64,000 nt of DNA, from NCBI GenBank assembly GCA_951406725.2, contig OX597838.1, positions 16,244,001 through 16,308,000 on the forward strand, written 5' to 3'. The notes below the pieces were generated by a model. The model searched no databases, was not told the DNA's origin, and worked only from the letters and a program-made list of their open reading frames with translations. Shown piece after piece: positions 22,361-62,797 of this stretch. Position numbers and translations under genes: made by a program. Each line of letters starts with the position of its first letter. The first letter of the stretch is position 1. This DNA is from Octopus vulgaris. Its lineage: Eukaryota.

Positions 22361-23191
22361 CAATTTATAATGAATAGTAGTTAGTGATTATAGTTTGCCA
22401 ACAGACCAATCTCTAGTCAATTCAATTTCTGACAGCTACACTGCCAAGGGGAGTGTTGGTAACTTGGCACTGAACAAATAGTGTAAGAGACTTTGCACAA
22501 TGAATATTAGCTTTCCGATTCATTTTTCTAACTGATGTTTATATGCTTCACTGATATACACCAGTAAAAGATACACGCACACAACAAGCAGTGCGAGAAC
22601 TCGATATCCATGAAAGAGTGAAGATGTTTCTTACATGAAACCAATGGTAGCCTAAATATCTATGGTTGTGTTATGCTTACAATTATATATATATATATAT
22701 ATATATATTAATGAATAAATAAAACATATGCATATATACATACAAATATGTACGCACCTACCTCTACATGTATATATACATGCATATATGGGTACAGGAC
22801 ATACAATACAAGGAAAATTTCCCTTCTTCAGTCGCTTTTGTTTCATCTACTCCACGTTTCGAAGGCCACACACACACACACATATATATATAAACACAGT
22901 CAGGTTATACAAACACGTATATATGGACACATACACACACACAATCTTTCCAGATAGTTTAAGTAAACATTGTATCGATGTGTGTGCATATGGATATGAG
23001 TTTATGAGTGAGAAAATAAAAAAGTGTGTGTATGTGTGTGTAGGTGAATGTCAGAGGGAAAATGTATGAGAAAAGTTATGTATATGTAAGAATATGTGTA
23101 TATGGGAGAGAGAGATAGTGTGTGAGTGTGTGTGCATGCTCGCTAATTTGGAAAAGATGAGGAAGGGTGAGTAAATAAAGTAGCTTCTTAC

Positions 23192-23371
23192 CAGTGGGAT
23201 TATCCCACGTTGGCTGTCTTCATTCTTTCCCATCATGGTGTAGCTTTTCCCTGCACCAGTCTGTCCATATGCAAATATACAGACATTGTATCCTTCAAAA
23301 GCATGTTCCAACATCTCCAGGCCGATGTCTTCATACACTTTTGTCTGGGACGAAAATTCAGGATCAGAAGG
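23192..23371 (-). CDS. unc-104: Kinesin-3 coding exon 3 with P-loop, [60 protein letters not shown]
   Basis: TTCTTTCAG acceptor and GTAAGA donor. 180 nt, phase 0-0. Contains Walker A motif GQTGAGKS. Confidence 0.97.
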
Positions 23372-23435
23372 CTGAAAGAAAGAAAAATTAAAGATATATA
23401 TATATATATATATATATTTATGTGTGCGTGCATTA

Positions 23436-23582
23436 AGGCTACCATTGGTTTCAGGTTAAGAAAAGTATGAAAATATCCTAGTGTCTTAACAATTTTTCAA
23501 TCCAATAACATGGAGGCTTGAAAAATTGTTAAGACACTTGGAAATTTTCCTACTTTTCTTAACATGAAACCAATGGTAGCTT
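23436..23582. repeat. Fold-back inverted repeat with 65-bp arms and 17-nt loop
   Basis: Arms 23436-23500 and 23518-23582, 5 mismatches by manual alignment. Confidence 0.95.
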
Positions 23583-23769
23583 TACTTCACAAATAAAGAA
23601 ATTATATCTACCAATGCAGCGTTAAACACTCCTTTTCATCATTCAACATTTACATATATATATATATAAGCAATAATTATAATGACAGAGAATATGGAGA
23701 GAGGTACATCCTCAAAATTTATTTATTTTTATTTTACAATGTCGTACAGCATATTTTTATGGTTATAAT

Positions 23770-23842
23770 GACCTACACGTGTTTCCACTGCACAGAGCGT
23801 ATACAACTGGATATAGTTTTCTGTGCAGCTTCATGCAGGATC
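23770..23842 (-). ncRNA. Hammerhead ribozyme motif with a 1-nt core insertion (probably inactive)
   Basis: Minus strand reads GATC-CTGCATGA-A-GCTGCACAGA...TCTGTGCAGT-G-GAAA-CACGTG-TA-GGTC. All helices are present, but the core is CUGCAUGA rather than CUGAUGA. Confidence 0.7.
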
Positions 23843-23995
23843 TTTCAACCAGCTTGGATCAAAGCAAACTCAGTGTGAATGACAACTCCTAATAGTCATA
23901 GACTCTGAATACTAATCGATGCGGTTAGCTGAAACCTGGAACATAACTGAGGGTTATCGCGGTATTTGCCCAGAAATATATCACTCTAAGCACAC

Positions 23996-24027
<32 letters not shown>

Positions 24028-25913
24028 TTGCATGTGTGTAATGATGATGATGAACTCTCTTGTGAAAGACGATGTAGGAGTGTTCAGCTTTTTCCAAACA
24101 ACCTGCAAAGATGATTTGTTTATAGCAATCAAACGTCTGTGCTATACAAATGTCTGTGCTCTCCACCAAATCGGCGTTGCATGAAACGGTGTATCATGCA
24201 TCAGATGTCAAAGTGAAAGCAGAGCAACACAGGATGAAGTGTTTTGCTCAAGAACACAACACCACCTGGGCTCAGAATTGAAACAATGATCTTACGATCA
24301 TGTGTGCAACACGCTAACCACTAGGCCATACACCCTCATACATGTAAGGTGTACCATAATTCATGGCATCTGGTGGAGCATCACTGAAGATTTACCTTCG
24401 TTTAGTTAAAGACAGCAATCAAGGACTGTAATACAGCTTTCAGTCACTGAATTGCAACCATGCTGAGACACTGCCCTTAAGGGCTTACTTGATCAAATCA
24501 ACACAAGAAATTATTTTTTTAAAGTCTGTTATTTATTCTACCAGTTCCTTTTGCTGAACTGCTAAGTTATGTGGATGTAAACAAACTGACACCAGTTATC
24601 AAACAGTGGGGAGAACAAACAGAAAAACACATACACACTCATATACGATGGGCTTCCATAGAGTTTCCATCTATCAAATTCACTCACAAAGCATTGGTCA
24701 GTCCGGGGCTATAGTAGACGACACTTGCACAAGATGCTACGCAGTGGGACTGAACCCAGAGCCACAGGCTGCAAAGCCTTTAGTCAAACAAATTGACCCC
24801 AGGACTTATTCTTTGTAAGCTGAGACCTTATTCTATAGGGTCTTTTTTGCTGAACTGCCAAGTTACAGGGACATAAACATACCAACATCAGTTGTCAAGT
24901 GACAGTGGTGGGGGGGGACAAACACTGACACACAAACATATATATATATATATATATACATCTGTATGACTGGCTTGTTTCAGTTTCTGTCCACCAAATC
25001 CACTCACAAGGCTTTGGTCAGCCCAAAGCTATAGGAGAAGTCACTTGCCCAAGGTGCCATGCAGTGGGACTGAACCTGGAACCATGTGGTGGGTTAACAA
25101 GCTACTTACCACATAGCTGATAGAAAAGTTAGGACGCTGGGCAAAATGCTTAGCGGTATTTTGTCTGGGCTACATTCTGAGTTCAAATTCCGCCGAGGTC
25201 GTCTTTGCCTTTCATTCTTTCAGGGTCGATTAAATAAGTACCAGTTACACACTGGGGTCAATATAATCGACTTAATCCGTTTGTCTGTCCTTGTTTGTAC
25301 CCCATGTGTGTAGCCCTTTGTGGGTAGTAAAGAAATAAATATTGGTGGGGGGGTATCAAATTTTGCCCACAAGGTATTGCTTAGCCCAAGGTAACAGCAG
25401 AAGACTCTTAACTCTAACTTTCTTACATTGGGCTTCAATGCTTGACCACATGGCTGAGAAGTAAACTTCTTAATCAAACAACCATGCCTGCACCTATAAT
25501 TAATATTACATATATTAAATATATTAATCTAATTTTATTCTGTTCAGTACTTATCTATTGATCCAGATATACAAAAGAGAATAAGATAGGGGGGGAGACA
25601 TAGAGGTAGAATGAAAGAGAGAAAGAGGGAGGGACGATAACAGAAAGAGGGAGAGTGAGGAGAATAAGGAAGACAGAGGATGAAAAAAGTAGAGATAGAG
25701 AACGAGAGAGAAAGGGGAGAGAATAAAAAGGGGAGTGAGACGGGGAGGGTAAAAAAAAATAGCATTGTTGAAGGTGGATGGTTACAGCTAAATCAGGTCA
25801 AATTATAGCAGATTAACCGCCTATAATCTAATCTAGCTTTTATAGTTTTTAACAGATGTAGCACAGTACTCCACCACCTGTATACAGAGACACAACACAC
25901 AGAGGCGGTAGTG

Positions 25914-25954
<41 letters not shown>

Positions 25955-26421
25955 GACATAGAAATAGTTTGATGAAATTTTATTTAATGAGAAAATTCTA
26001 ATATCATGATGAATTGTTTTGTAACTCGCAAGCATGTAAATAATTTATATTATATTTAATGATAAATAAATATATGTGTATGTAAATATATATATATATA
26101 TAGATATACATATATACATAAATTTATATATATATATATATATATACACATATATATAAATTTATATACATATATACATTTATTTAAATTATATATAAAA
26201 TATATACACATATGTATATAAATATATATATATATATATATATACATATATACATAAATTTATACATATATATATATACACATATATATAAATTTATATA
26301 CATATATACATTTATTTAAATTATATATAAAATATATACACATATGTATATAAATATATATATACATACATATATTTAAATTTATACATATGTAAATACA
26401 TATATTTAAATTTATATATAA

Positions 26422-26487
<66 letters not shown>

Positions 26488-26638
26488 TTACATATATATA
26501 TATATATAAATTTACATATATATATATATATAAATTTACATATATATATATATAAAAATTTACATATATATATATAAAAATTTACATTTATATATATAAA
26601 AATTTACATTTATATATATGTATTTAAATTTAGATATT

Positions 26639-26703
<65 letters not shown>

Positions 26704-27039
26704 ATATATACAAATGTAAATATATATAGATAATATATCAGAGACAGATGTAGGTCAATGGTTTCCATGCAGTAATTTAGTGAAACACTACCACATGACA
26801 ATTAAAATGCAAAGTATGTCACCATGCTTGACAGAGATCCATGCTGTGGCAACAGACAAGTCACACAACAGCACAGACACTTATCTATGATGTCATGTGT
26901 CACTGTCTGACAATGAATTATGTTACCTCATTATACAGCTACCTAGGCTGTGGACACAGACAGCTCATCACACTGACCTGTCAAACAGCAACCTGTTGTC
27001 CTGTCTAACAGAAATCTACACTAACTGTCAAGCAGCAAT

Positions 27040-27530
27040 CCACAGTCCCATCAAACAGTATTCCACACTGTCCTGTCAAACAGTAATCCACACTGTCCTG
27101 TCAAACAGTAATCCACACTGTCCTGTCACACAGTAGTCCACACTGTCCTGTCACACAGTAGTCCACACTGTCCTGTCAAACAGTAATCCACTGTCCTGTC
27201 AAACAGTAATCCACACTGTCCTGTCAAACAGTAATCCACTGTCCTGTCAAACAGTAATCCACACTGTCCTGTCAAACAGTAGTCCACACTGTCCTGTCAA
27301 AGTAGTCCACACTGTCCTGTCAATAATCCACTGTCCTGTCAAACAGTAATCCACACTGTCCTGTCAAACAGTAATCCACTGTCCTGTCAAACAGTAATCC
27401 ACACTGTCCTGTCAAACAGTAGTCCACACTGTCCTGTCAAAGAATATTCTGCAGGGCTCTGTCAAACAGCAATCTGCAGGGCTCTGTCAAACAACAATCT
27501 GCTGGGCTCTGTCAAACAGCAATCCACACT
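27040..27530. repeat. 25-bp minisatellite (CTGTCAAACAGTAATCCACACTGTC)n with 23-bp variants
   Basis: Direct reading. Confidence 0.95.
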
Positions 27531-28096
27531 GCTGACTAATTGAGATTGCAAACCCTGCTGCCATGTCAGGCAACTACATATGCTACCGTATTAGACAGAA
27601 ATTAATATTGCATGTCACGGTCAGATAACAAATTACTCTGCTGTCTCACAACCAGACAGCAACCCATGCTCTCATGTCACAATCAATCTCCATCTTCCTA
27701 TAGCCACATGGAGTCAATAGCAATTGGTTATCAGTCCTTGATAATGGAAGGTTTGAAGCATGGCCCAACCAGCATCTCTGATATCAGGTTTCACACTCTT
27801 ATAATTCAATACAATAGTGTTACACCATCAGAGGTTGATTCTAATCTCTTTCCTGCTGATCTATATTTTCCCAATGTTAGTGCCACTTTAATTCTAATGC
27901 AAAATTATACAAGGGTGTGGCACAGAAGACTCCAGTACTGGAACCCAACATTAAAAATTAAAACCCCTGAGGTTAATGTCACTCAATCTGAAAGTAGTGT
28001 TCCAATATGTTCTTGGTCAATATTTTCAAAAATTCTGCATTTAAAAAACAAAAAAAAAAAAAAAAAAGAATACAGAGGTAATATTTTTCAACTTAC

Positions 28097-28179
28097 ATCA
28101 GTGTGGGACCAATATGAATAATCAAAATTAAAGCTCTTGTACATTTGGTCCTTGGGTCCAGGTTTAGGATTCTGTATAG
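28097..28179 (-). CDS. unc-104: Kinesin-3 coding exon 2, (T)IQNPKPGPKDQMYKSFNFDYSYWSHTD
   Basis: Not in the ORF track. TCTTTTGCAG acceptor and GTAAGT donor. The 83 nt restore the frame (100+83=183). FDYSYWSH is typical of kinesin-3. Confidence 0.95.
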
Positions 28180-28959
28180 CTGCAAAAGATAAAGAAATAC
28201 AGGATCAATGAAATGAGGCCCTTACAGGTGTTGAGTCAATTTCTAACATATGCTAACGAACATTTTTGTAGTAAACTTTTATAACTTCTAATCCATTAGG
28301 ATTGGGAATTCGAATTACTGCTAGTATATTTGTTGTTTCTCTCAGAAAGACATTCAATATTCTATATTTCAATACCTTGCTGGATGGTATGACAATTTTC
28401 TCATTCTATGGCAGTAGATCCCTCATCTGAGATGCCACATGCTGTAACACCTTCTCCAGCAGCAACTTTTCAGTTTGTTTTAGCAATTAAGATCATTCTA
28501 GATCAATGATTTGCAACCATTTTTCTCCTATGGACCCCACTTGATTCTTGTTTCACTTGGATAGACGCTCATAACCATTTATTTGATGTTTAAAAAATCC
28601 TATTATATTTTCATGATTATTATTAGGAATTATATATAAAAAATTATTAAAATATTTTAGATAAATTTCAACAACGAAATCTTATATGGACCCCCAAGGG
28701 CCAAGTTGAATCCAATTGAGAACCACTGCTTAAGAGTATCATCTTCAGCTCTTTCTTTTTTTTTTCTTAGGTTAAGCTGGAGTATGGATCAAAGGAGACC
28801 CATAGAGACAGAAGACCTAACAGAAACATCTAATCAAACACTTTCACTTTCTTTTTAAGACAGACGAGATTAAGACAATGAGTCTAGAGGTACTTAAGGA
28901 ACATTTTCAAGAGCATCAGAAGATTTAAGGGCACATTCCGTATCTGTTGGAATATAGAA

Positions 28960-29160
28960 TAACCTACATTGCCAGTGGCTGGGTAGCAGAGGGAAACAGG
29001 AGAAACCAAAGAAGAGTACAGAAGATATTATAGCAGAAGATTTTATAGACTTAGAAAAGATGGGAATTATCTGGAGTGATACAAAAATGCAGCATGAGAC
29101 AAGGACCCAACAGAAACAACTTATTGCCCAATGTCCCACAAGAGAAACAAAGAACTAAGA
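28960..29160 (+). mobile_element. Possible degraded RTE 3' end
   Basis: RGK..KPKK......DL.KMGI.W......QLIAQC resembles an RTE ORF terminus. Confidence 0.35.
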
Positions 29161-29549
29161 AGAGTATGATTTGAGAGTTATCTGGTGGTCATTTCTGGCA
29201 GATTGAGTGACTACATAGAAACTATTTGAGTCTCTTTTTTTCCCCGTGTCCCTTCATTCTGCATCATTTCATCTAAAATTATTGAATCTTCCTCACACAG
29301 CATCCAGACATGGAAGTTGCAGATTTATGCAGCAAATGAGATTCATGTAGATTTTGTGATGTAAAGCTGAGAATTGAACTCTCTTCAACCAGGACTTCTG
29401 CTTCTCCATACAAGGCACAAACTAAATACTTCAACTGAAAGAAGGTACCACTCCAAAGTTGCTCAAGCTGCAAGAAATAGCAGCTAAATCTCCTACAGAT
29501 CACAATCTACCATCATAAATAAAGAGAGGATAGCTAAGTCCATTTAGTT

Positions 29550-29724
29550 CAGCGGTTCTCAACTACAGGTCCCATGGTTGCATGCAGCCCTCAAGCATTT
29601 TCCTGGTGGCCCCACCAACAGTCTTCCTTCTACAAGCATAAATTTTTCTTTTGGTGCAGCCCCCTAATAAAAAAAATCCAGGTTTTGGATCTGGTCTGGA
29701 TATTAAGAAGTTTGAAAACTACTG
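29550..29724. mobile_element. hAT-like MITE
   Basis: Imperfect TIRs CAGCGGTTCTCAAC ... GTTTGAAAACTACTG. No clear TSD. Confidence 0.55.
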
Positions 29725-30096: not shown

Positions 30097-30133
<37 letters not shown>

Positions 30134-30150
30134 CACACACACACACACAC

Positions 30151-30203
<53 letters not shown>

Positions 30204-32478: not shown

Positions 32479-32533
<55 letters not shown>

Positions 32534-32673
32534 GTCATGAGAGGTAATGGTGTCACTGAGACCCAAAGGTGTCAGGTAATACTGAATAAGTGCTATAGAT
32601 AGACCATAGTTAAGTTCCAGGTTCGGTGATTATGCGAATAAGGGGTTCAATGTTAGTCATATGTCAGCGTGTG

Positions 32674-32890
32674 TATATAAAAATTTTATTTCGTAATGGG
32701 ATAAAAAAACTATGGCTGTGTAGATTTTAGAACATTTATAAATAGGTCTTACAGCTGTTTCCAGGATATTTATTGCTGAAGGGATATAATAGATATCCTT
32801 GAAACAGCTGTAAGACCTTCTATCTATAAATGTTCTAAAATCTTCACAGCCTTGGTTTTTTTATCTCATAATGAAACAAAATTTATATAT
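32674..32890. repeat. Fold-back inverted repeat with ~100-bp arms
   Basis: Arms ~32674-32774 and ~32788-32890. Each carries GAAACAGCTGTAAGACC, on opposite strands. Confidence 0.9.
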
Positions 32891-32898
32891 ATATAAAT

Positions 32899-33293
32899 GG
32901 AATGGCTGTGTGGTAAGTAGCTTGTTAACCAACCACTTGGTTCTGGGTTCAGTCCCACTGCATGGCATCTTGGGCAAGTGTCTTCTGCTATAGCCCCGGG
33001 CCGACCAATGCCTTGTGAGTGGATTTGGTAGACGGAAACTGAAAGAAGCCTGTTGTATATATGTATATATATATGTGTGTGTGTCTGTGTTTGTCCCCCT
33101 AGCATTGCTTGACAACTGATGCTGGTGTGTTTACGTCCCCGTCACTTAGCGGTTCGGCAAAAGAGACCGATAGAATAAGTACTAGGCTTACAAAGAATAA
33201 GTCCCGGGGTCGATTTGCTCCACTAAAGGCGGTGCTCCAGCATGGCCGCAGTCAACTGACTGAAACAAGTAAAAAAGTAAAGAGTAAAGAGTA
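32899..33293 (+). mobile_element. SINE family A copy
   Basis: Near-complete match to the reverse complement of 1401-1823, with an AAAGAGT tail. Confidence 0.85.
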
Positions 33294-34529
33294 ATATATT
33301 TGTGTGCTGTCATAACACAGATATGATATACAGATATATCTATTGCCATTGTCATGATGTCTTTTGTCATAACATGATTATCAGATCTGTAGTCATAACA
33401 TGGTTATAAAATCTATGGTTAAAAATGTAGTGGTGATTTTATTTTTATAATTTGCAACCAAGGTTCTTCTGTTCATCAATGCTGCAGATGTCTATGATGA
33501 AAATGCAAAAATTTCCAATAATTGTTAGAATCTTGCCAGTTTTGTAATCAATAGAAATCATCTCTTCTAGCAGACAATCAACTAACCCAAATCACGGTAA
33601 CAGCTACGGCACTACAAATTCTTTGTGAGACACATTTTATGTACACTCCATGAAGACACACCCAATTCACATGTCTTTTATAATCACTGAAGGAGGTTTT
33701 TGATAAACTGTAGCTTTATTCTCAACATAATTATAACATCTATTTCCATCTGTAAAGTACTTCTGGCTTTCAGTGCCAAAAATAGAATGAGGTGGATAAG
33801 AGAGAGAAACCATTTATAACGAGGTGTTCAGTTCAATTTATAGTCCTTGCTTAACTGGATTTCTTTGATGTCACACAACTATATTATTCCTCAGCTAAAT
33901 ACATTTTCTCTTTTCTTCATTTTTTTGGGGGGTGATGGGGAGAGCTCTTTTGATGTTACTGACATTGATTTCCAGATCACAAGTATAGAAAATATTGGCT
34001 TGTATTTGTAATTTTCTGCTTTTTATACAAAAAAAAAGTATATACTAAGTGCTTACTCAGCAATAGGGGAATGCCTGGCTGAGTAGTTAAGATGTTGGAC
34101 TCACGATTGTTAGGGGTCCACAAGTTCAATTATGGGACCAGACAACACTGTACTCTTAAGCAAGGCACTTCATTTCCCATTGTTCCAGTACACTCAGATA
34201 AAAATCAGTCACATTGACTCCTGGGGATTAACCCTGTGATGGACTGACATATCATACAAAGGTTAAGAAGTGTGCTCTCAGCTTAAATGCCTTGAAAATC
34301 TAGCAGAGTCCCAGCTTCAAGGAACAGAAGGCTCAAGGTATATAAAAACCATACACAGTGGCTGTGTGGTTAAGTTTGCTTCCCAAACATGCCGTTGAAT
34401 GATTTCCATCCTCACCTCTTTTATATATATATAATTATTATTATTATTTTTATTAAGAGTAGGGAATATAAAAATTCCAAACTTACAGGGAAAAATTCAA
34501 TTCAGCAACACTAAATCAAATTTCACAAT

Positions 34530-34830
34530 ATATATGTATACAATTTAGAGATAAAACCTGTAATAAGTAATTCAATTAATAGTGAAAGATATTAACTATA
34601 TAGAAAGAATTTAAATATATTATATTAAATATTATTCTAAAAATCACTAAATTAAATAAACATTAAATTGACTACGCGTGTTTCGTAACTATATATCTTT
34701 AAATGATAATAGTAAAATCTATAATATTAAAAGTTAATATTAATTTGATTTGAAATTCTTTCTATATAGTTTGATATCTTTCACTATTGAATTACTTATT
34801 ACAGGTTTTATCTCTTAATTATACATATAT
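34530..34830. repeat. Inverted repeat with ~80-bp arms and ~135-nt spacer
   Basis: GAGATAAAACCTGTAATAAGTAATTCAA...ACTATATAGAAAGAATTT, with its reverse complement at ~34749-34830. Confidence 0.9.
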
Positions 34831-35608: not shown

Positions 35609-35639
<31 letters not shown>

Positions 35640-35726
35640 ATAATAAATATTAGGGAATGAATCCAAAAATTACAGGGAAAAATCAGATTTACGGTTAAAT
35701 CCAATTTTATAGTAAAATATTATATA

Positions 35727-35894
35727 ATATAATTCGAGACAAAACCACTATTTTAAAACCAAACAAGGAAAGACTTAATCAATACATAAAATTTTAATAT
35801 AAATTAAATAAAATAAATAAAATAAATATTAAAATTTTATGTATTGATTAAGTCTTTCCTTGTTTGGTTTTAAAATAGTGGTTTTGTCTCGAAT

Positions 35895-35899
<5 letters not shown>
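35727..35899. repeat. Perfect fold-back with 74-bp arms and 25-nt AT loop
   Basis: 35727-35800 is the exact reverse complement of 35826-35899. Confidence 0.95.
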
Positions 35900-37880: not shown

Positions 37881-37980
37881 TGGTTGTTGTTCCACACATA
37901 TCAATGATACAAGTTGAGTCTCGGGCAATTTCCCGACTGTTGAAGGGACGTACCCTTACAGCAACTTTAACCGACGACAT
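37881..37980 (-). CDS. unc-104: Kinesin-3 (unc-104/KIF1A-like) first coding exon, [33 protein letters not shown]
   Basis: ATG at 37980 with the kinesin N-terminal motif [17 protein letters not shown] donor at 37880 (phase 1). Acceptor TTTCTTTATTACAG ends at 37991, leaving 10 nt of 5'UTR, so an upstream non-coding exon must exist. Confidence 0.96.
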
Positions 37981-42568: not shown

Positions 42569-42744
42569 AGCCACAGGAGTGGCTGTATGGTAAGTAGCTT
42601 GCTAAACAACCACATGGTTCCGGGTTCAGTCCCACTGTGTGGAATCTTGGGCAAGTGTCTTCTGCTATAGCCCCGGGCCGACCAATGCCTTGTGAGTGGA
42701 TTTGGTAGACGGAAACTGAAAGAAGCCTGTCGTATATATGTATG

Positions 42745-42783
<39 letters not shown>

Positions 42784-43002
42784 TTTGTGTGTCTGTGTTT
42801 GTCCCCCTAGCATTGCTTGACAACCGATGCTGGTGTGTTTACGTCCCCGTCACTTAGCGGTTCGGCAAAAGAGACCGATAGAATAAGTACTGGGCTTACA
42901 AAAGAATAAGTCCCGGGGTCGATTTGCTCGACTAAAGGCGGTGCTCCAGCATGGCCGTAGTCAAATGACTGAAACAAGTAAAAGAGTAAAGAGTAAAGAG
43001 TA
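42569..43002 (+). mobile_element. SINE family A copy (young, complete)
   Basis: Head GGAGTGGCTGTATGGTAAG, B box GGGTTCAGTCCC, three AAAGAGT tail units. Confidence 0.85.
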
Positions 43003-51102: not shown

Positions 51103-52423
51103 GTTTAGTCCTTTTGATACCAACCCACCTGAGATATAAACATCGGTGTGATCTAAGTTATAAATGATATAAATTAAGTGATTTAAATTAAAACCAGCTA
51201 TCTTGAATTTGTGCTAATTTATGTCCTTAATACCTGCTTCATAATGACAAAGTTATTTTAGTAAATTCTTCATTATCTTCAAAATTGATTGAAACAAAGG
51301 TTGCGTACTTCAATAGAAATTTCATAACAAAAGAGTTAAACTTCTAACATAGTAAGCCTCAAGATTTACACAATGGTTTCAGGTGCAACATAACAGAGAT
51401 AATTCTCAGTGCACACACACACACACACACACACTTGCATCTACACATTCAAGAGTATTGATGACTAGTTTATTCCATGAATAACTGAAAAAAAAACAAC
51501 AAAAAACCAATACTGAGGGTGAACTATTGCGTAGTAAACATTTTTTCTTCTTTCACCTGAGTTACTTGTTATTTTCAATATTTCAAAGGTAAATTCCATT
51601 GAATATCATATTTAATTAAAACAATAAGTAAATTAGATCTCTCCTAAAATTCATATTACTCTTAACTGTTTTAGTTGTTTCAGTCATTTGGCTGTGGCCA
51701 TGCTGGAGCACCGCCTATAGTCGAGCAAATCGACCCCAGGACTTATTCTTTGTAAGCCTAGAACTTATTCTATTGGTCCCTTTTGCCAAACTGCAAAACA
51801 CACCAGCATCGCTTGTCAAGCGATGATGTTGGGACAAACACAGACACACAAACATACACATACACACACACACACATATATATATACACATACATATATA
51901 CGACGGGCTTCTTTCAGTTTCCGTCTACCAAATCCCCTCACAAGGCTTTGGTCGGCCCGAGGCTATCGTAGAAGACACTTGTCCAAGGTGCCACGCAATG
52001 GCACTGCGCAGTATGAGTGCCCCATTATACAAGTAATATGCTGCATGAGCCGAGACTCATGCAAGTTTTTGTCTTGAAGTACAAGCGGAAATCCGCAGTA
52101 TGAGCACACGAATCTTTAAGGTAATTCAGTTAATAAAACCAGTTTTACATATTTCTTTTGCATTCTCTTTGTTATAATTGTCGTTTTACTTATAACTACA
52201 CCTTTTCTGTTTTAAAACCCATAAAAAATTATTTTCGAGTGGTTGGTGAGTGGGGGTGCACTGGAATGGATTAATAATATTTTAGCTAATTTCAATGGGG
52301 AAAACTGATTTGTAGAACATGTAAATCGTAAGACGAGCTTGTTCATGGAATGAATTGGAATCATGCTGCAAGGTATCACTGTATATATATATATATATAT
52401 ATATATATGCAAACTTAAGGTAT

Positions 52424-52600
52424 GTTAAAACATGTTTGTGACATATTTCAACTTCTAAAGGCAAATTCATTGCAGTTACCATGGAGAAAAATTTCCTCTT
52501 ATGGTAAAAGGTGTAAAAACATCATAAGACAGAATTTTTCTCCATGGTAACTGCAATGAATTCGCCTTTAGAAGTTGAAATATGTCAAACATATTTTAAC
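52424..52600. repeat. Fold-back inverted repeat with ~78-bp arms
   Basis: TGACATATTTCAACTTCTAAAGGCAAATTCATTGCAGTTACCATGGAGAAAAATT and its reverse complement. Confidence 0.92.
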
Positions 52601-52835
52601 CAACCAAAAGTTCAATTATGCCTAAAGACTGCCAGGTGTTGATACTACTAAATGAATATATATATATATAGCAACACAACTACACGCATGCTGTTGGTAA
52701 TCCCTTTTCCATCTTTGGACTTTTCCTTTTATCCTTTCTGACAAAAAGCTACTGACCATCAAGTTAATACATTCCTTGTGCATGCCCTCTTGTTGTCCGT
52801 TAATTTTATAATTCATTTATCTGAATTGACTATAC

Positions 52836-52890
<55 letters not shown>

Positions 52891-54222: not shown

Positions 54223-54289
<67 letters not shown>

Positions 54290-56003
54290 TAATCACTCGG
54301 AGAATCTAATGAAGGTTTTTTTGTAATTGAATCACTAAACTCATCACCTTTTAAGACCTCTATTATTTCATCAGTTGGGGATTGAATGCGTTGCAAGCTG
54401 TAATAGGGAAGGGGCCACAGTCTCCATTTGAAAGGCAGATAAAAGAACACAAACATACTCTATCGTTGGTAAACAGATATATATTACTTACATAGTCAGA
54501 AAAGAACACTTGTGTGTGCATGGGAAAGAGAGAGTAAGAAAAGATAATGATGCCTAAGTGTATTTGAGTATTTAACATATGTCTGTGTGAAAGAGACAGA
54601 GAGAAAAGGAGAAAGAGAGAGAGAGTGTGTGTGTGTGTGTTAGACAAGAGATTAATATAGATGAAAAAGGGAAAAAATCATTGAGTGAGAAAGGCAGAAA
54701 TTGAACATACATCCATTAAGATTGCACTTGTTACATTCTCGGCTGCTCTCTCTCTCTGCCTTGCACCAGGAAATATGTTCTCATCTTGCACACACACACA
54801 CACACACACATACATACACACACACAGAAATGAAGCAGAGAAGAGGCAAAAAGAATATGTTTAAATGAAAATGCGAAAGAAATTAATGAAGAAATGACGG
54901 AAAAGAAAATAACATACAAGATGGTTTAAGGTAGAATAAAATAGAGATAGAACAACAGAGAGGGAGAGAAAGAGACCAAGAGAGACGGAGAGCAGAAGAG
55001 AGAGAGAGAGAGAGAGAGTAGGAAGAAAGCGATAATCAGATAGCATTATGTTTATACACAAACAAATAAAGAATATTGCAAAAAGAATTCCGTTTTCTGG
55101 ATTTCCATTTTTGTTTTATTTTCTTGTTAAAAGGAGGAATGGCATAACAAAAGACTCCGTGCTAGATTAGATAAGCAGGAAAAATTGACGCAAAACAAAC
55201 GCCGCCATCATCAAACACGGATTGTATCTTTGGAAAAGGGAAATTATTATTCAAAATGGCCGCAGTTAAAGATGATTCTTATTTTTAGTCCATTATACAT
55301 ACATACATACGTACATACATATGAATATGTGTGTGTATTTAAGTATGTATGTGAGTATTTATGTGTATGTAAGTGTGTATATGTGTGTGTGTGGGTGTGT
55401 GGGTGTGGTGTTAGGATGATGTGCGTAAAAATCACAAACAGAAGCCAACAAAAATCGTACACATCAGCTAAATATATGATCTGATTTTTCTAGAAGAATT
55501 TTGTTTTCAATACAACTGTACAAAACAGACATATTTTACAAAAAAATTCTTCCGCAAAAGCCAGCCATTAAACATTAAAATGCTACGAAGCAGAATGAAA
55601 CATATGCACATATTCAATAGGATGCACACATATGTATATACAGATATCCATGTACACTTTTGTGCGATTAAATGTCCTTCATATTTCTACTTACTTTCTA
55701 TTTTTTTTAGTGGAAGAGGGATTAATTTCATAAATAAAACCCTTATAATATATTTTCGTTCAAAATTTTTCACTGAAAATTTGCTTATATAATGTAAAGA
55801 CAAGACAAAAATGGCTACGAAATGAAGATAACGCAGAAGATGTTTGTCAAATTTTCTTCCATAAATGACAAATATTCAAATAATAATCTATGAAACGATG
55901 ACGGTCTTTCTTTATTTGCCACAAGATCCAAAACAAGGTAACACTACAATACAATATAACACACACACACAGACGAGTATTCAATGGAGTTAGATACAAC
56001 ACT

Positions 56004-56043
<40 letters not shown>

Positions 56044-57699
56044 AAAACCATATCAGTATGGAAAAGCTGATGTAAATTGATGATACTGAAATATTTATGT
56101 TATTTACAAAACTTAACATTCTTAATGTTAAATTGTAATTAAAATTTATATATGTATGTGTGTGTGTGTGTGTGTATGAGAATATAAATCTTGCTTTCTA
56201 GCTTACATAAAAAACATTGATAAGGTCATTAATTAACAATGAGGAAAAGAAGAAAAGGGTTTATAATTATCAAAAACATAGTTTCTTTATTTTTATCTGA
56301 AAAATTATTGAGAATTACTTCCAAATTCTAACCTAAGCTACAAACGACATTGAAAATAAAATCACTGCACTTGGGATGTCCCAAAAATATGGCACTTAGA
56401 CATATTACTTATATGATAGCAAAAAATAAATTTAAATGATATTAAGAACAATGTATGTGTGTATCTACCTGTAGGTGTGTGTATGGATGTACATATGCCA
56501 GTTGGGAAAAAGGAACTTTAAATAATGATGATGAAATGTGTGTGTATGTGTGTATTATACATATATAAACAGTGGAAAATTTGCTAAACTCGTTAATAGA
56601 AAAGGAAAAAAATTTACTGGGTCAACATAGGTTTTCAGTTTGATTTGATATTAAAGATCAAAAATAAATATGTTTATATAATGAATATAATTATCCAAAA
56701 TTAAAACACTGTCACAATGTCCAACAAAGAAGGTCAGGTCACAAATAGAAGCGAATTTGATATAAAACAGCTGGTCGAGAGAGACATTTGCTAAAATATG
56801 TTATATTTTAAGACAGAAATAAAATTTTAATAAAAATACAGCTGTTACATTGTTTGGTAACAATTAGCAACTAATAATGATAATAATGATGAGGATGATG
56901 AAGAAGATGAAGATGAGGATGATTTTTTTTTTTTAACTTTACCACAAGATGGCAAATATTTTATCAACCCCAGTACTTTACAGTTGTTATTTGTCTTGCT
57001 GAGCCTGGGAGAATAAATGTTAAAATAAAGACTTCATCTGGATTTGAACCCTGTTGCAGCTTTGGCTTGACACATTGTGCATGAATGTCACAATTGCTCA
57101 ATGCCCTAAAGATTCATATTTGACTACTCAAAAGACTCCATATTACGACTTGTAAAAATAATAACAGTTTCAAATTTTGGCAGACGTCCAGCAGTTTTAC
57201 ATGGGTGAGATTATAACATCGACCCCAGTGCCGGACAAATAACCATCTTATCAACTCTGAAAGGCAAAAACAGTGACTTTGTGGTAAGAAGCTTGCTTCT
57301 CAACCACAAGGTTCCAGGTTCAGTGCCACTGCATGGCACCTTAGGCAAGTGTCTTCTATTATAGCTTCAAGCCAACCAAAGTGGATTTGGCATACAGAAA
57401 CTGAAAGAAGCCCATCATATATACATACACACACATACACATTTATATATATGTATATATATGGCGGTGAGATGGCAGAAACGTTAGCGCGCCGGGCGAA
57501 ATGCTTAGCGGTATTTCGCCTGTCATTACGTTGTGAGTTCAAATTCCGCCGAGGTCGACTTTGCCTTTCATCCTTTCGGGGTCGATAAATAAAGTACCAA
57601 TTTCGCACTGGGGTCGATGTAATCGACTTAATCCCTTTGTCTGTCCTTGTTTGTCCCCTCTATGTTTAGCCCCTTGTGGGTAGTAAAGAAATATATATG

Positions 57700-57731
<32 letters not shown>

Positions 57732-57869
57732 TATGGAGTGGTTGGCATTGGGAAGGACATCTAGCCATAGAAACCATGCCAAATCAGACTAGAGTCTGGT
57801 GCAGCCTTCCAGTTCTGATCAAGTCATCCAACACATACCAGCATGGACAACAGATGTTAAATGATGATG

Positions 57870-57919
<50 letters not shown>

Positions 57920-58680
57920 TACATATTGTTATAATTCAGGATGGTCATGTAGTGCCAAATAAACACAGGCACTACATATTCATCCTTCATTTGTTTATTA
58001 TAGTTCATAGTTTATCTTATGTCCATTGTCTGGAAAGCTTACATCACACACCTGTGACCTCTTCAGCGACCTATCCATCCCACATTTCTCCTCCTGTTCT
58101 GTTTAAGCCATTCATAAACGTATATGTGTGTGGGGTAGAGTTGTGTTTCTTTGTCCCCCACCACTACCAGTGTTGGTGTGTTTACATCCCCATAACTTAG
58201 TCGCTTGGCAAAAGAGACCAATAGAAAAAGTACCCGGCTTTAAAAAAAATAAGCACTGGGGGTTGATTGATTCGACTAAAAATTGCTCAAGGCAGTGCCC
58301 CAGCATGGCCAGTCTAATGACTAAAACAGCTAAAGAAAAAAAAAAAAAAAAAAACGAGAAATGTTGCTAAGCATTTTGTCTGAAGCACTAATGATTCTAC
58401 CAACTCACTACCTTACTACTATTACTACTACTACTACTACTACTTTTCAATTTCAGAACAAGCCCAGCAGTTTTAGGGGAGGAGATAAGTCAATGACATT
58501 AACCCCAGTTTTTCAGACTCATACTTATTCTATCTACAGCCAAGAAGCATGAAAGGTAAAGTTGACTGCAACAGCATTTGAACTCAGAACATAAAGGACC
58601 AAAAGAAATGCATCTTGTCCAGTGCAGTAACATTTCTGCCAGCTACTGGCTTAGTAATTATTATTATTATTATTATTATT

Positions 58681-59880
58681 AAGGTCTCAAGCTGGCAGAA
58701 CTGTTAGCATGCTGGATGAAATGTTTAGCGGGATTTCGCCCATTGCTACGTTCTGAGTTCAAATTCTGCCAAGGTCGACTTTGCCTTTCATCCTTTCAGG
58801 TTGATAAATTAAGTACTAGTTGCGTACTGAGATCAATCTAATCGACTGGCCTCCTCCCCAAAAATTTCAGGCCTTGTGCCTAAAGTAGAAAAGATTATTA
58901 TTAATATTAAAGCGACAAACTGGCAGAATCGTTAATGCACTGGGTGAAATGCTTAGCGGTATTTCGTCCATTTTTATGTTTTGTGCTTAAATGCCACCAA
59001 GGTCAACTTTGCCCTTCATCCTTTCAGAGTCAATAAATTAAGTACCAGTGAAACACTGGGGTCCATGTAATCAACTAGTCCCCTCCCCCAAAATTTCAGG
59101 CCTTATGCCTTCAGTAGAAAGGATTAGTATTATAATTATCATGAATATTAAGACAGCAAGCTGGCAGAATCATTAGCACGCTAGACGAAATACCCAGCAG
59201 TATTTCACCTGTCGCTAGATTCTGAGTTCAAATTCCACCACGGTCAACTTTGCCTTTCATCCTTTCAGTGTTGATGAAATAAGTACAAGTTGAGCACTGG
59301 GCTCAATGTAACAAATTAGCCCCCCCCCCCCCGCCTCACAACCCCACAATTTCAGACTTTTGCCTATAGTAGAAAGAATTATCATTACTACTATTTATTA
59401 AGGCAGCGAGCTGGCAGAATCATTAGCACACCAGAAAAAATGCCTAACAGCATTTTGTCTGTCATTATATTCTGAGTTCAAATTCCACTGAGGTCGACTT
59501 CACCTTTCGTTGCTTCAGGGTCGATAAAATAAGTACCAGTTGAACTCTGAGGTCAATGAAATTGACTTAACCCTCCCCTGAAATTGCTGGCCTTGTGCCA
59601 AAATTTGGAACCATTATTGTTATTACTATCATTATCATTATTACTATTATTATAATTATTATTATTTAGGGCAAGCTGGCAAAGTTGTAAGTACACTGGG
59701 CAAAATGCTTAGCAGTATTTTGTCTGTCTCTATGTTCTGAGTTCAAATTCTGCCGAAGTCGATTTTGCCTTCTATCCTTTTGGAGTCAATGAAATAAGTA
59801 CCAGTTGAGCACTGGCATCAGTGTAATTGACTAGCCCCTCCCCCAAATTTAAAGCATTGCTCCTATAATAGAAAGGATTA
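58681..59880 (+). mobile_element. Head-to-tail array of five diverged family B SINEs separated by (ATT)n
   Basis: Units start near 58681, 58909, 59149, 59400 and 59668, each reading AAG..CTGGCAGAA...GCCTT..ATCCTTT...CCTCCCC...AGAAAGGATTA. An inverted copy precedes them at ~58445-58655. Confidence 0.85.
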
Positions 59881-60495
59881 TGATGGTGATGATGATGATG
59901 TTGAGGAGGAGGATAATTGCTTAACTTTAATTACTTGAAATTAGCCAAAGAGCAGTTTGTGTAACGACAGAATTCAGCTCATTTATTTAATACAAGTATC
60001 TTACAGGATATTTCTACTTCACCCCTGCAAGAACCACTAGAAAATAAAAGGAAAAAAAAAAAGATGGTCAAGTATGAGAGACAAGAAGAACAATAAAAGA
60101 ATGTGACGTCACACTACAGTCTCTGACCCATAAGCCAGTTCGTCTTCTACTATTGCTACCAATTCCACCATTCTGATAATAACTACTACTGTTACTACTA
60201 TTTTTAATATATGTTCACAGATTTAGGTGGAAATTAGAATAGATTTGATTAAATCATTCCTAGCCTTTGACTGGTATTTATATCATACCAACCATAAAAG
60301 GATGAAAAGCAAATATTAACTTAGATGGGATTTGAACTCAGAACATAACAAGACAAAACAAATACCACAAAGCATTTTAACCAGAGCTTACCTCTTTCCC
60401 AGTTCTGCCATCCACCATTCTAATATATATATCGCCATGTTGAATCGTTAGCCCCTACACGCAATTTTTTTCTCTCCTTGTTTCTTTTCTGTGTA

Positions 60496-60533
60496 TCTTT
60501 CTGTCGAAGAGCGTAGGCTCGAAACGTAAAAGA
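60496..60533 (+). ncRNA. Ultra-minimal hammerhead-like motif with A6U core variant
   Basis: TCTTT-CTGTCGA-A-GAGC-GTAG-GCTC-GAAA-CG-TA-AAAGA. 5-bp stem I, 4-bp stem II, ACGT palindromic stem III. It lies in a ~200-bp island flanked by TA repeats. Confidence 0.6.
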
Positions 60534-60658
60534 CTTTGTTTTATTTCTGTTCCTGAGCGCCATACTAATACATTGTTTGTTTGTACTCCACCTGCCTTCG
60601 TCTTTTGTTTATTTTCGTAAACCTTCCCGTTATATATATATATATATACACACATATG

Positions 60659-60694
<36 letters not shown>

Positions 60695-60700
60695 CACACA

Positions 60701-60911
60701 CAAGGGGGTGCTGAAAAGTTCCTGGCTTTGGGTAAAAGAAAATACAGGAGGATCAGTTAATGATGATTTTATTCAACATATTCCCCCTGCAAACCCTTGT
60801 TGCAGTGGTCCTTCAGTTTTTCTCAGCTCTGTAAAAGAACTCGGACAGTTGGGCCTCCAATCAGGACCTTTGTAATACTCTTAAAGCCAGGAACTTTTCA
60901 GTATCCTTTTG
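60701..60911. mobile_element. Mariner-like MITE
   Basis: ~28-bp TIRs AAGGGGGTGCTGAAAAGTTCCTGGCTTT / AAAGCCAGGAACTTTTCAGTATCCTTTT. Confidence 0.7.
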
Positions 60912-60919
60912 TGTGTGTG

Positions 60920-60956
<37 letters not shown>

Positions 60957-61303
60957 GTATTACTCTGTCTTTGGTATTTGAGTACTATTTTTTCCACCTT
61001 GTTTTGCATCTATGTGCTTACTTGTGCATGCGTTGTGTGTGTATACATATAAGGATACTGATTATTTTTGACTAAATACAAGGCCAGATGTTGTAGGATT
61101 ACTGATATATAATATGTTTGATACAACAAAGACAAAACAAAACACTAGAGTACATTCCAGCCAATGTTCTTATTCCTATCCTCTAACCTATACGACAATC
61201 TGCCAACCAAGTTGTGGCCACCACACTTTCCTTGACATAGCAGCCAAATTTCCTTCAAATTTCACCCAGCTTTCATTATTTAAAAAAAAAAGTGAAACAT
61301 TAA

Positions 61304-61514
61304 CCCTTTAGCATTTAAACTAGCTAAAAGTATTCTACCTGTTTTATGTTCAAACTGGCTAGATCTGGTCTCTCACACCAACCCTACAATATCATCTTAA
61401 AAATTAACAGCTACCTCATCAAAATCTCATAGCTACAAGATAATGCACGATTAATTCAAAACAATGTGGATGAAGAAGCATTAATTTTGGCAGAATAATG
61501 CGAACACTAAAGGG
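61304..61514. mobile_element. piggyBac-type MITE
   Basis: TTAA-CCCTTTAG...CTAAAGGG-TTAA. Same family at 19282-19502, 37511-37724 and 50192-50407. Confidence 0.8.
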
Positions 61515-62102
61515 TTAAACAATACAGTCCTTGATATACACAAAATGGCAAGATAGTCATGGTTGGAACACCTTTAATCATAAGTATCTGCATCCAGAGC
61601 TGACCTTCGGCTAAACTTCAACAATAACAGGTTTTCCAGAAATGCAACTTCAATTATTTTCATCTAATTTCTGCTATTTTTACCCAATTACTGCATTTCA
61701 GCCAACAACTGCTACAGCCAATTGGCATGAAAAACCATCCCATTCCATTCAATAAATAGTCAGCTACCTATACATGATGGTGGTGGTTGTGGCGGCGGCG
61801 GCGGTGGTGGTGGTGGTGGTGGTGGTGGCAGTGTTTAATTCCAGGTCAGCTTTAGACTAGCAGACCTCTGACCAAAATGTGCTTCAGTTTTATCAGTTAG
61901 CCTTCAGACACGGTGTACCTAGGACTACATTATCAATTCTGCACTTCTCTTTTCATGACAACTGAGTGTGATTCAAGGGCAATTTGGGCTGTTATTTCTG
62001 GTTGGTCAACCAAGTGCAAGATTCCTGTGTGCAACTGGTTGACTTTGGATGGGTGGGGAAACAGACAAACAAAAGTATCTGTGCACACACACACACACAC
62101 AC

Positions 62103-62199
<97 letters not shown>

Positions 62200-62276
62200 T
62201 ATAAAATAATAATTTATACCGGTGGTTAGCATGCGTGATAAAAGTCAGAAGACATAAATATTTTTTTATAATATAA

Positions 62277-62455
62277 GAGTGTATAAAAATTTATACACGA
62301 AGAGAAGACTACCAAGTGGACTTCTTACATGTTAAAGAGGACAGACAAATCCCAAACCACAAAAAAACATTTTCATGGCTTGGGATTTGACTGCTCTCTT
62401 TAGCATGTATGAAATCCACAGAGTGGTCTTCTCTTCATGTATAAATTTGTATACA

Positions 62456-62458
<3 letters not shown>
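62277..62458. repeat. Fold-back inverted repeat with ~82-bp diverged arms
   Basis: GAGTGTATA...GAAGAGAAGAC...CAAATCCCAA pairs with TTGGGATTTG...GTCTTCTCTTC...TATACACTC. Confidence 0.88.
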
Positions 62459-62528
<70 letters not shown>

Positions 62529-62573
62529 AAATGAGATGACAAAGGAATAAACGATTATCAAATGAACTTCATT

Positions 62574-62654
62574 AGCTTACAGCTGTTTCTGCTACAAGAT
62601 GCTGTGGACTCATAGTTGAGTGCCTGAGTAACACCTTATAGCTTCATCAGAGCC
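62574..62654 (-). ncRNA. Minimal type I hammerhead ribozyme motif (Penelope-like element type)
   Basis: Minus strand reads GGCT-CTGATGA-A-GCTATAAGGTGTT..(ACTCA/TGAGT)..AGCATCTTGTAGC-A-GAAA-CAGCTG-TA-AGCT. Intact core, 13-bp stem II with G-U pairs, palindromic stem III, GUA cleavage triplet, 4-bp stem I. Confidence 0.8.
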
Positions 62655-62797
62655 TCAAGTAATCACTTCATTCCGAAGCATGAGTATACTGAGTTCCACA
62701 CCAGTTTATCAGTCTCGCAATGCCTAAGCAAAATATCGAAACACAAAACCTCCATCTGAAAGAGTCTAACAACTAACAATAAAAAAAATAAATAAAT

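What the first reader, a model, noticed from the sequence alone, without database searches (positions are those of the whole stretch)
22600..62660. Shared system: (TA)n-embedded fold-back hairpins built around hammerhead 3' halves
Seen: six long inverted repeats, all beside TA microsatellites. Arms or spacer carry a GAAA-palindrome-UH motif: GAAACCAATGGTA (23436-23582, both arms), GAAACAGCTGTA (32750 and 32801), GAAATATGTC (52424-52600, both arms), GAAATCCACAGAGTGGTC (62411, imperfect) and GAAACACGCGTA (34673-34684, spacer). The 35727-35899 hairpin lacks the motif but shares its leader with the 34.5-kb element. Most arm sequences are unrelated, implying several families made by one mechanism. 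Inference: PLE reverse transcription folds back near the ribozyme hairpin and deposits inverted pseudo-LTR stubs in (TA)n. This would be a dense source of long intronic dsRNA in a lineage known for extensive ADAR editing.
Basis: partly seen in the sequence, partly recalled or inferred. Interest (0 to 1): 0.75.

Follow-up and report, generated by a model that had tools for sequence, protein, structure and literature searches.

The report
Twin-primed Penelope retroelement hairpin stubs
These six DNA hairpins are real, head-to-head stubs that sit in TA repeats and come from Penelope-like jumping genes (four) or protein-less ribozyme repeats (two); the layout is already described, but their many sister copies show that neither arm has to be a copy of the other, so both cut DNA ends likely start copying the same RNA at two fixed points.

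Summary
All six inverted repeats are real and lie within 11 nt of (TA)n (random: 21%). Four (A-D) are ends (pLTRs) of Penelope-like elements of Hydra type; D has intact ORFs. Two (E, F) are ORF-less tandem hammerhead units, retrozyme-like.

In position-ordered samples of D (70 sites) and B (66 sites), 70 of 75 two-armed inserts pair a tail-ended arm with an arm ending at a fixed upstream site. Either arm may reach further 5' (22 v 22), and 9 pairs do not overlap. This argues against single snap-back and for two cDNAs joined head-to-head. D stubs are mostly spliced (29 v 11 sites) and stop at the probable transcript start, so the template is a sense RNA.

Inverted pLTR, tail, (TA)n bias and hammerheads are published. 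This scan reached twin priming and PLE-moved retrozymes before, on other DNA. A-D are intronic in a kinesin gene; editing is untested.

The parts
23407..23516 (-). A, tail-less inverted arm of a Hydra-type PLE pLTR; holds a whole minimal hammerhead (about 23438-23503); 36 nt from a kinesin 3' splice site
   Evidence: family linked to RT/EN ORF in L047, L257
23515..23652 (+). A, tail-bearing arm; whole hammerhead 23515-23580 with U3-A8 core; ends at (TA)n
22628..22657 (+). short solo fragment of family A (3' part of the hammerhead)
32528..32773 (-). B, tail-bearing arm (tail about 145 nt); starts in the loop of hammerhead stem II
   Evidence: family linked to a Hydra-type endonuclease C-terminus in one locus (L235/L261)
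32777..32889 (+). B, tail-less arm; stem II, GAAA, palindromic stem III (32801-32816); reaches 18 nt further 5' than the tail arm
34436..34754 (-). C, tail-bearing arm with long stem II and hammerhead 3' strand (34670-34684); 5' core missing
   Evidence: family linked to endonuclease end in L116, L119
34735..34839 (+). C, tail-less inverted arm (inner border uncertain by about 20 nt)
35636..35812 (-). D, tail-bearing arm of a young (99% alike) Hydra-type PLE; begins 8 nt 3' of the predicted hammerhead cut
35813..35825 (.). D, 13-nt junction insert made of repeated template-end units
   Evidence: same kind of insert
35826..35899 (+). D, tail-less inverted arm ending at (TA)n
52412..52526 (-). 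E, tail-less arm of a ~333-nt tandem hammerhead unit (retrozyme-like); no hammerhead in this copy; reaches 27 nt further 5' than the tail arm
52527..52662 (+). E, tail-bearing arm ending at (TA)n
62193..62371 (-). F, tail-bearing arm of a ~540-nt tandem hammerhead unit (retrozyme-like); no hammerhead in this copy
62372..62458 (+). F, tail-less arm ending at (TA)n
37881..37979 (-). host kinesin gene, first coding exon (motif match only, no Pfam hit; preceded by a 3' splice site)
23192..23371 (-). host kinesin gene exon (P-loop); with the exon near 28100-28180 it places A-D inside introns
   Evidence: Pfam PF00225 E 9e-19; splice signals

Best explanation
The six hairpins are head-to-head insertion stubs of Penelope-like elements (A-D) and of retrozyme-like hammerhead units (E, F), likely built anew at each landing when both cut DNA ends in a (TA)n run prime a separate cDNA on the same RNA.

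Shown: one arm ends at a fixed tail end (T2) and the other at a fixed site 35-145 nt upstream (T1). The inner ends vary. Either arm can be the longer. Some pairs do not overlap. D stubs carry a spliced leader.

Inferred: the GIY-YIG endonuclease cuts both strands. The RT, probably a dimer, starts at T1 and T2 inside the 5' pLTR of a sense transcript. Each cDNA stops on its own, often at the transcript start or at the 3' border of the hammerhead. The two 3' ends are then joined by short homologies, blunt joining or a templated insert. The hammerhead is cargo and a frequent stop, not the organiser of the hairpin. E and F likely borrow the PLE enzyme.
For: (1) Identity. D sits upstream of intact 838-841-aa ORFs with DKT, an RWK-like motif, a CxCx5C linker, a C-terminal GIY-YIG-like domain and CxxC/CxH. 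These match the Hydra definition (PMC8557442 section 11). Atlas look-alikes carry RVT_1 and GIY-YIG in a minority of members (17-48% and 11%). A, B and C link to the same ORF type.
(2) Coupling. D, first 100 of 720 exact matches = 70 sites: 45 T1/T2, 1 T1/T1, 0 T2/T2, 2 with a decayed arm, 22 single. B, first 72 of 215 matches = 66 sites: 25 T1/T2, 2 T1/T1, 0 T2/T2, 39 single.
(3) Independence. The tail arm reaches further 5' in 22 of 70 pairs, the tail-less arm in 22, and they are equal in 26. Nine pairs do not overlap.
(4) Same RNA. Both arms share a subfamily indel in 15 of 15 informative pairs and the splice state in 11 of 11.
(5) Sense template. A 1,306-nt GT-AG intron is missing at 29 sites and kept at 11 (30 sites uninformative). 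No spliced arm passes reference position 62, an initiator-like site.
(6) Stops. D: 38 of 118 arm ends lie at the start site, 40 within 29 nt 3' of the cut (23 at +7 to +9), and 8 inside the ribozyme. B: 25 of 93 at +1 to +25, against 8 in the 51 nt before.
(7) Outer flanks are TA at 113 of 118 D arm ends.
(8) In vitro, a PLE protein cuts and extends both strands and starts at two internal sites that bracket the tail; it is predicted to be a dimer (PMC11167929).
(9) E and F read on across unit end to unit start (11 of 28 and 8 of 28 loci). They show the same T1/T2 ends (13 of 15 and 13 of 18 partner arms). Five Hydra proteins give no hit in 90 loci.
Against: All of it is genomic inference; no insertion intermediate was seen.
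26 of 70 pairs have equal ends, many at a palindrome, and the 22 'tail arm longer' pairs also fit snap-back. A mixture of mechanisms cannot be excluded.
In the top-hit D sample the tail arm was longer 7 to 1 among pairs past the query start; the position-ordered sample evened this out.
Arm concordance could come from later gene conversion.
Exceptions exist: 3 T1/T1 pairs in the samples, a long D insertion tail-less at both ends (L181/L249), and two T2/T2 cases in F.
Many sites are single-armed (D 22 of 70, some long arms with the partner out of range; B 39 of 66; A 24 of 30 top hits), so the hairpin is one outcome only.
The transcript start is inferred from the pile-up and a recalled initiator consensus.
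A, C, E and F were studied on top hits only. The ORF link of B rests on one rearranged locus. E and F were tested against Hydra proteins only. Pfam and PDB gave no significant hit for the ORF.
Confidence: 0.72

Rival explanations
1. Snap-back: one cDNA stalls at or near the ribozyme, folds back on itself and is copied into the inverted arm.
For: Short palindromes and 1-11-nt overlaps occur at many junctions. There are 26 equal and 22 tail-longer pairs, the arms are concordant, and ends pile up at the hammerhead border. Self-priming was proposed from junction palindromes in PMC3846280.
Against: In 22 of 70 pairs the tail-less arm holds 5' sequence missing from the tail arm, and 9 pairs share nothing. 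Window copies A, B and E are of the first kind. Snap-back also gives no reason for the fixed T1 end.
Confidence: 0.15
2. The pile of ends 3' of the hammerhead marks self-cleaved RNA: RT runs off the 3' cleavage fragment rather than stalling at a folded ribozyme. This is a sub-rival, compatible with twin priming.
For: A few B arms begin at -1 to +3 (L382, L389, L391; also L222, L226, L234 by eye). One D junction insert appears to end at +1 (L292). Core motifs are conserved.
Against: No D arm ends at +1 to +6 (0 of 118) while 23 end at +7 to +9. Most arms read through the ribozyme. In vitro the uncut RNA is the main template (PMC11167929). AT-rich palindromes just 3' of both ribozymes could attract joints on their own. 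The predicted helix closing the D ribozyme is no more stable than shuffles (z -0.09), so the stall model is weak too.
Confidence: 0.3
3. The hairpins are MITEs or fold-back DNA transposons that move as units.
For: They are short and non-coding, have inverted arms and a TA context. A true TIR-type element lies nearby at 60695-60917.
Against: Junctions differ from copy to copy, the ends are asymmetric, many copies are single-armed and 5'-truncated, an intron has been removed, and the families link to RT ORFs.
Confidence: 0.02
4. Self-priming on an antisense transcript makes the head-to-head layout and explains intron retention (proposal in PMC3846280).
For: Long D copies keep the intron (11 sites; L181), and the junctions have palindromes.
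Against: 29 sites carry the leader with the GT-AG intron removed in the sense direction, in both arms where both cross it (9 of 9 pairs). An antisense template would need spliced genomic donors with their own antisense promoter.
Confidence: 0.06

Closest known systems
Insertion units of endonuclease-positive PLEs: pLTR, adjacent inverted 5'-truncated copy, one-sided tail (PMC8557442 Fig. 2 legend; Pen2a_Av, PMC3846280; D. virilis Penelope, PMC2377424)
   Same: Head-to-head layout, tail at one end, palindromes at the junction, 5' leader intron, asparagine-rich linker in the ORF.
   Different: Tails are 35-145 nt here, against 30-40. Most copies are 150-400-nt stubs without ORF. Spliced genomic stubs and non-overlapping arms are not mentioned in the passages I read.
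Hydra clade of PLEs (PMC8557442 section 11; Hydra-1_Obim listed in its File S1)
   Same: DKT, RWK-like motif, CxCx5C linker, no CCHH, CxxC and CxH, hammerhead, (TA)n target.
   Different: D has KWK for RWK and a 3.6-kb 3' region in L181 (described elements are mostly under 3 kb). No tree was built, and identity to Hydra-1_Obim was not tested.
Minimal PLE hammerheads (PMC4209133)
   Same: Long stem II, short stem I, palindromic stem III, U3-A8 variant (A, E). Opposite-strand pairs 100-700 bp apart were already noted in Schistosoma.
   Different: B has C at core position 4. Here the pairs are tied to fixed T1/T2 ends.
Metazoan non-LTR retrozymes (PMC7229834; bioRxiv 10.64898/2026.07.22.740005)
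   Same: E and F are ORF-less, low-GC tandem units with one type I hammerhead each. PLEs were proposed as the mobiliser.
   Different: F (~540 nt) is above the 150-450-bp range. Only up to about 1.8 units were seen per arm. The inverted and tail footprint is not described in the passages read ('inverted' 0 hits in PMC7229834; 'tail' 0 in the preprint).
LINE-1 twin priming (recalled, not from a call)
   Same: The second target end primes a second cDNA, and the inverted piece is joined by microhomology.
   Different: In L1 the pieces do not overlap and the second site is variable. Here both sites are fixed and the arms usually copy the same RNA stretch.

Membership tests
EN+ Penelope-like element (A-D) | single ORF with PLE-type RT and C-terminal GIY-YIG endonuclease linked to the repeat | tested here: met
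   D: intact ORFs directly behind the tail. A, B, C: decayed RT/EN pieces in the expected place (B one locus). Domain names rest on motifs and minority Pfam shares; Pfam itself gave no hit.
EN+ Penelope-like element (A-D) | pLTR with minimal type I hammerhead | tested here: met
   core found in A 22 of 30, B 16 of 24 (13 CCGATGA, 3 CTGATGA), C 11 of 20 rows; D by sequence and fold
EN+ Penelope-like element (A-D) | inverted 5'-truncated copy and one-sided tail | tested here: met
Hydra clade | DKT, RWK, CxCx5C linker, no CCHH, CxxC/CxH | tested here: met
   read from ORFs (KWK in D, RWR in the L255 family); for A, B, C only partly visible
Hydra clade | phylogenetic placement with described Hydra RTs | not tested
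   no reference sequences were fetched
Hydra clade | (TA)n insertion | tested here: met
   113 of 118 D arm ends; 6 of 6 in the window
non-LTR retrozyme (E, F) | tandem ORF-less unit, GC under 50%, one type I hammerhead per unit | tested here: met
   periods 301-340 (7 loci) and 533-552 (4 loci); GC 0.37 and 0.31; no hit of 5 Hydra proteins in 90 loci
non-LTR retrozyme (E, F) | unit of 150-450 bp | tested here: inconclusive
   E fits (about 333); F is larger (about 540)
non-LTR retrozyme (E, F) | self-cleavage and circular RNA | not testable with these tools
   needs bench work
MITE / TIR DNA transposon | fixed symmetric termini and fixed interior among copies | tested here: not met
   asymmetric T1/T2 ends, variable junctions, single-armed copies
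MITE / TIR DNA transposon | target-site duplication | tested here: inconclusive
   hidden by (TA)n on both sides

The most novel reading that the evidence does not exclude
PLE stubs record the whole reaction. A dimeric enzyme primes both target ends at two fixed sites in the spliced, capped 5' leader of one sense RNA, and the second cDNA displaces the first. The hammerhead acts as a template boundary at which the telomerase-related RT stalls and re-copies the last few bases: inserts of 15 nt or more sit at 7 of 14 junctions with an end at +7 to +9, against 3 of 31 others (Fisher p 0.005). Only copies started at the unspliced downstream pLTR are long, which would explain intron retention. Retrozymes ride the same reaction.
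Probability: 0.25. Interest if true: 0.78.

Novelty: new member of a known kind. Interest (0 to 1): 0.5.

Why it matters
How PLEs make inverted pLTRs and tails, why they keep introns and what their hammerheads do are stated as open questions (PMC8557442 section 15; PMC3846280 Discussion). Family D is young, has intact ORFs and has roughly 500 stubs (720 exact arms; extrapolated from 100 matches = 70 sites). Its stubs give exact start, stop and junction coordinates that can be tested in the existing in vitro PLE assay. Spliced stubs argue against the published antisense-template idea. The same footprint on E and F supports PLE mobilisation of retrozymes. The stubs also put 70-110-bp predicted duplexes into introns, which are plausible but untested ADAR substrates.

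Tried and rejected
The tool scan for inverted repeats was swamped by microsatellites, so a masked self-blast was used.

Rfam gave only sub-threshold microRNA-type matches and no hammerhead among the 150 of 192 rows shown. My own descriptor found one whole hammerhead in the window (62650, minus; 0-2 hits in 20 shuffles) and missed A's variant.

Pfam and PDB gave no significant hit for the ORF.

The whole-hairpin query for B (19 distinct sites, all two-armed) is biased towards hairpins and was not used for fractions. The top-hit samples for A, C, E and F are also biased. Rows dropped before counts were duplicate loci of one place: 11 in the first B set, 2 in E, 2 in F, 7 in the D sample, 4 in the B sample and 1.

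RNA: no RNA holder listed. Contigs of four runs only guessed to be RNA showed loose ends matching the spliced exon in 3 of 4. They cannot tell mRNA from intronic stubs and were not used as evidence. No read evidence on host splicing or A-to-G editing of the window hairpins was obtained.

Folding the D leader gave z -0.09, so the closing-helix explanation of the stop is not supported by stability.

Target-site duplications could not be read.

Literature searches for a prior twin-priming or spliced-stub account of PLEs found none. Subscription papers (such as Arkhipova 2006 and Evgen'ev 2005), Repbase/Dfam notes and the bioRxiv supplements were not seen and may hold it.


Full report
OBSERVATION. 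A masked self-comparison finds the six inverted repeats at the stated places; I call them A (23.4 kb), B (32.7), C (34.5), D (35.7), E (52.4) and F (62.3). All six lie within 11 nt of a (TA)5+ run, against 21% of random segments. The quoted motifs are present, but only those in A, B and C pass a strict test. A loose version occurs in 65% of random 200-nt segments. The window is G000:C25:16244001-16308000 of a 2.8-Gb genome.

WHAT THE ARMS ARE. Each arm belongs to a dispersed family with 582-3,475 first-look candidates. D is young (99% alike). It lies directly upstream of intact 838-841-aa ORFs that carry DKT, an RWK-like motif, an asparagine-rich linker, CxCx5C, a GIY-YIG-like domain without CCHH, and CxxC/CxH. 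This is the published signature of the Hydra clade of PLEs, which target (TA)n and carry hammerheads (PMC8557442 section 11); an octopus member is already listed in its supplement. Pfam and PDB gave no significant hit. Atlas look-alikes carry RVT_1 and GIY-YIG in a minority of members. A links to the same ORF type (L047; L257 has an inverted pLTR, the ORF and a direct pLTR), C to its endonuclease end (L116, L119), and B in one rearranged locus. C and D are related. All six families have a whole type I hammerhead. The window holds it whole in both arms of A, in part in B and C, and not at all in D, E and F. E and F are different: ORF-less tandem units of about 333 and 540 nt that read on from unit end to unit start (11 of 28 and 8 of 28 loci), with no hit to five Hydra proteins in 90 loci. 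They fit non-LTR retrozymes (PMC7229834), though cleavage and circles are untested.

SHARED GEOMETRY. In every family one arm ends at a fixed tail end (T2) and the other at a fixed site 35-145 nt upstream (T1), while the inner ends vary. Top-hit samples are biased, so I drew position-ordered samples with exact patterns. D has 720 matches (control 0); the first 100 gave 70 sites. B has 215 matches; the first 72 gave 66 sites. D gave 45 T1/T2, 1 T1/T1, 0 T2/T2, 2 with a decayed partner and 22 single-armed. B gave 25, 2, 0 and 39 single. So both sites are used together in 70 of 75 two-armed inserts.

SNAP-BACK TEST. If the second arm were copied from the first cDNA, the tail-bearing arm would have to contain it. 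Of 70 clean pairs the tail arm reaches further 5' in 22, the tail-less arm in 22, and they are level in 26. In 9 pairs the arms do not overlap. Window copies A, B and E are of the 'tail-less longer' kind. These need two cDNAs made on RNA. Yet the arms agree in a subfamily indel in 15 of 15 pairs and in splice state in 11 of 11, which points to one RNA, or to later conversion. Against this reading: 48 pairs also fit snap-back, a top-hit subset leaned 7 to 1 to the tail arm, and T1/T1 and T2/T2 exceptions exist.

TEMPLATE. Long D copies keep a 1,306-nt GT-AG intron in front of the hammerhead. In the sample 29 sites have it spliced out, 11 keep it, none is mixed and 30 are uninformative. No spliced arm passes position 62, an initiator-like site (consensus recalled). 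The stubs are therefore copies of the 5' leader of a sense, spliced transcript. This agrees with internal initiation shown in vitro (PMC11167929) and with the leader intron of D. virilis Penelope (PMC2377424). It argues against the antisense-template proposal in PMC3846280.

ROLE OF THE HAMMERHEAD. Of 118 D arm ends, 38 lie at the start site, 40 in the 29 nt after the predicted cut (23 at +7 to +9, none at +1 to +6) and 8 inside the ribozyme. Of 93 B ends, 25 lie at +1 to +25, against 8 in the 51 nt before. Whether the cause is a stall, cleavage or neighbouring AT palindromes is open; the predicted closing helix is not more stable than shuffles. Junctions with an end at +7 to +9 carry inserts of 15 nt or more, made of repeated template-end units, in 7 of 14 cases, against 3 of 31 elsewhere. 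The window's D copy has a 13-nt one. This could be telomerase-like re-copying by the RT or Pol theta repair (both recalled).

MECHANISM. Shown: fixed paired ends, independent inner ends, spliced leader, stop piles, TA flanks (113 of 118). Inferred: double cut in (TA)n, priming of both ends at T1 and T2 by a probable dimer, displacement of the first cDNA, end joining, and use of the PLE enzyme by E and F. Confidence is about 0.95 for the PLE-type origin and 0.72 for twin priming as the main route.

HOST CONTEXT. A-D lie in introns of a minus-strand kinesin gene and are predicted to fold into 70-109-bp duplexes. In such a duplex a ribozyme is paired with its own antisense and is probably inert (inference). 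Editing was not tested. The SINE-like repeats of the window give many more inverted pairs.

KNOWN AND NEW. Inverted pLTR, tail, junction palindromes, (TA)n bias, pLTR hammerheads and opposite-strand hammerhead pairs are published. Seven searches found no paper with twin priming, spliced stubs or the retrozyme footprint for PLEs; closed journals and repeat databases were not covered. I reached the two-cDNA reading before the look-up (note). Earlier notes of this scan report the same on other genomes, and PLE-moved retrozymes in this genome. They are unchecked and not support; one gave the lead to PMC2377424.

PAPERS SEEN. PMC8557442: passages, sections 11 and 15, supplement rows. PMC11167929: parts 1-2 of 4. 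PMC4209133: parts 1-2 of 4. PMC3846280: passages and Discussion. PMC7229834 and PMC2377424: passages. bioRxiv 10.64898/2026.07.22.740005: part 1 of 5 and passages, no supplements. L1 twin priming, Pol theta inserts, telomerase boundary and initiator consensus: recalled.

VERDICT. The value lies in the testable coordinates of a young intact family. Novelty: new member of a known kind. Interest 0.5.

Noticed in passing
window 62560-62653 (-): A seventh, solo, whole minimal hammerhead of another family lies right beside hairpin F and ends at (TA)n.
   Followed up: partly
window 60695-60917: Short element with ~35-bp terminal inverted repeats in a TA/CA context; it looks like a Tc1/mariner MITE (label recalled) and is unlike the six hairpins.
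   Followed up: no
window 37979 down to 8100 and beyond (-): Host gene is a kinesin, kinesin-3/KIF1A-like by recalled motifs, with exons near 37900, 28150, 23300, 9950 and 8150. Its ATG exon has an upstream 3' splice site, so E and F may lie in a 5' UTR intron.
   Followed up: partly
window 23372-23430: Hairpin A and its TA run abut the polypyrimidine tract of a kinesin exon, so the branch point region may fall in or next to the duplex.
   Followed up: no
L255, L256 (G000 C2, C8): A second intact Hydra-type family (955-962 aa open frames, about 50% to D) with two asparagine-rich inserts.
   Followed up: no
L181 (G000:C6:107965001-107975000): Long D insertion with a multi-kb inverted arm, internally repeated 3' region and a promoter-exon-intron copy inside the 3' region; both outer ends lack the tail.
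   Followed up: partly
family B, e.g. L221, L246: The commonest core is CCGATGA (13 of 24 rows), a U4C variant.
   Followed up: no
window, many places (e.g. 14106-14478, 32899-33262, 42574-42980): A very abundant dispersed SINE-like repeat in both orientations gives many more long-range inverted pairs than the six hairpins, so it is probably the larger source of intronic dsRNA.
   Followed up: no
family C, L116: An intron acceptor-like sequence abuts the 5' strand of hammerhead stem I, as reported for D. virilis Penelope.
   Followed up: no
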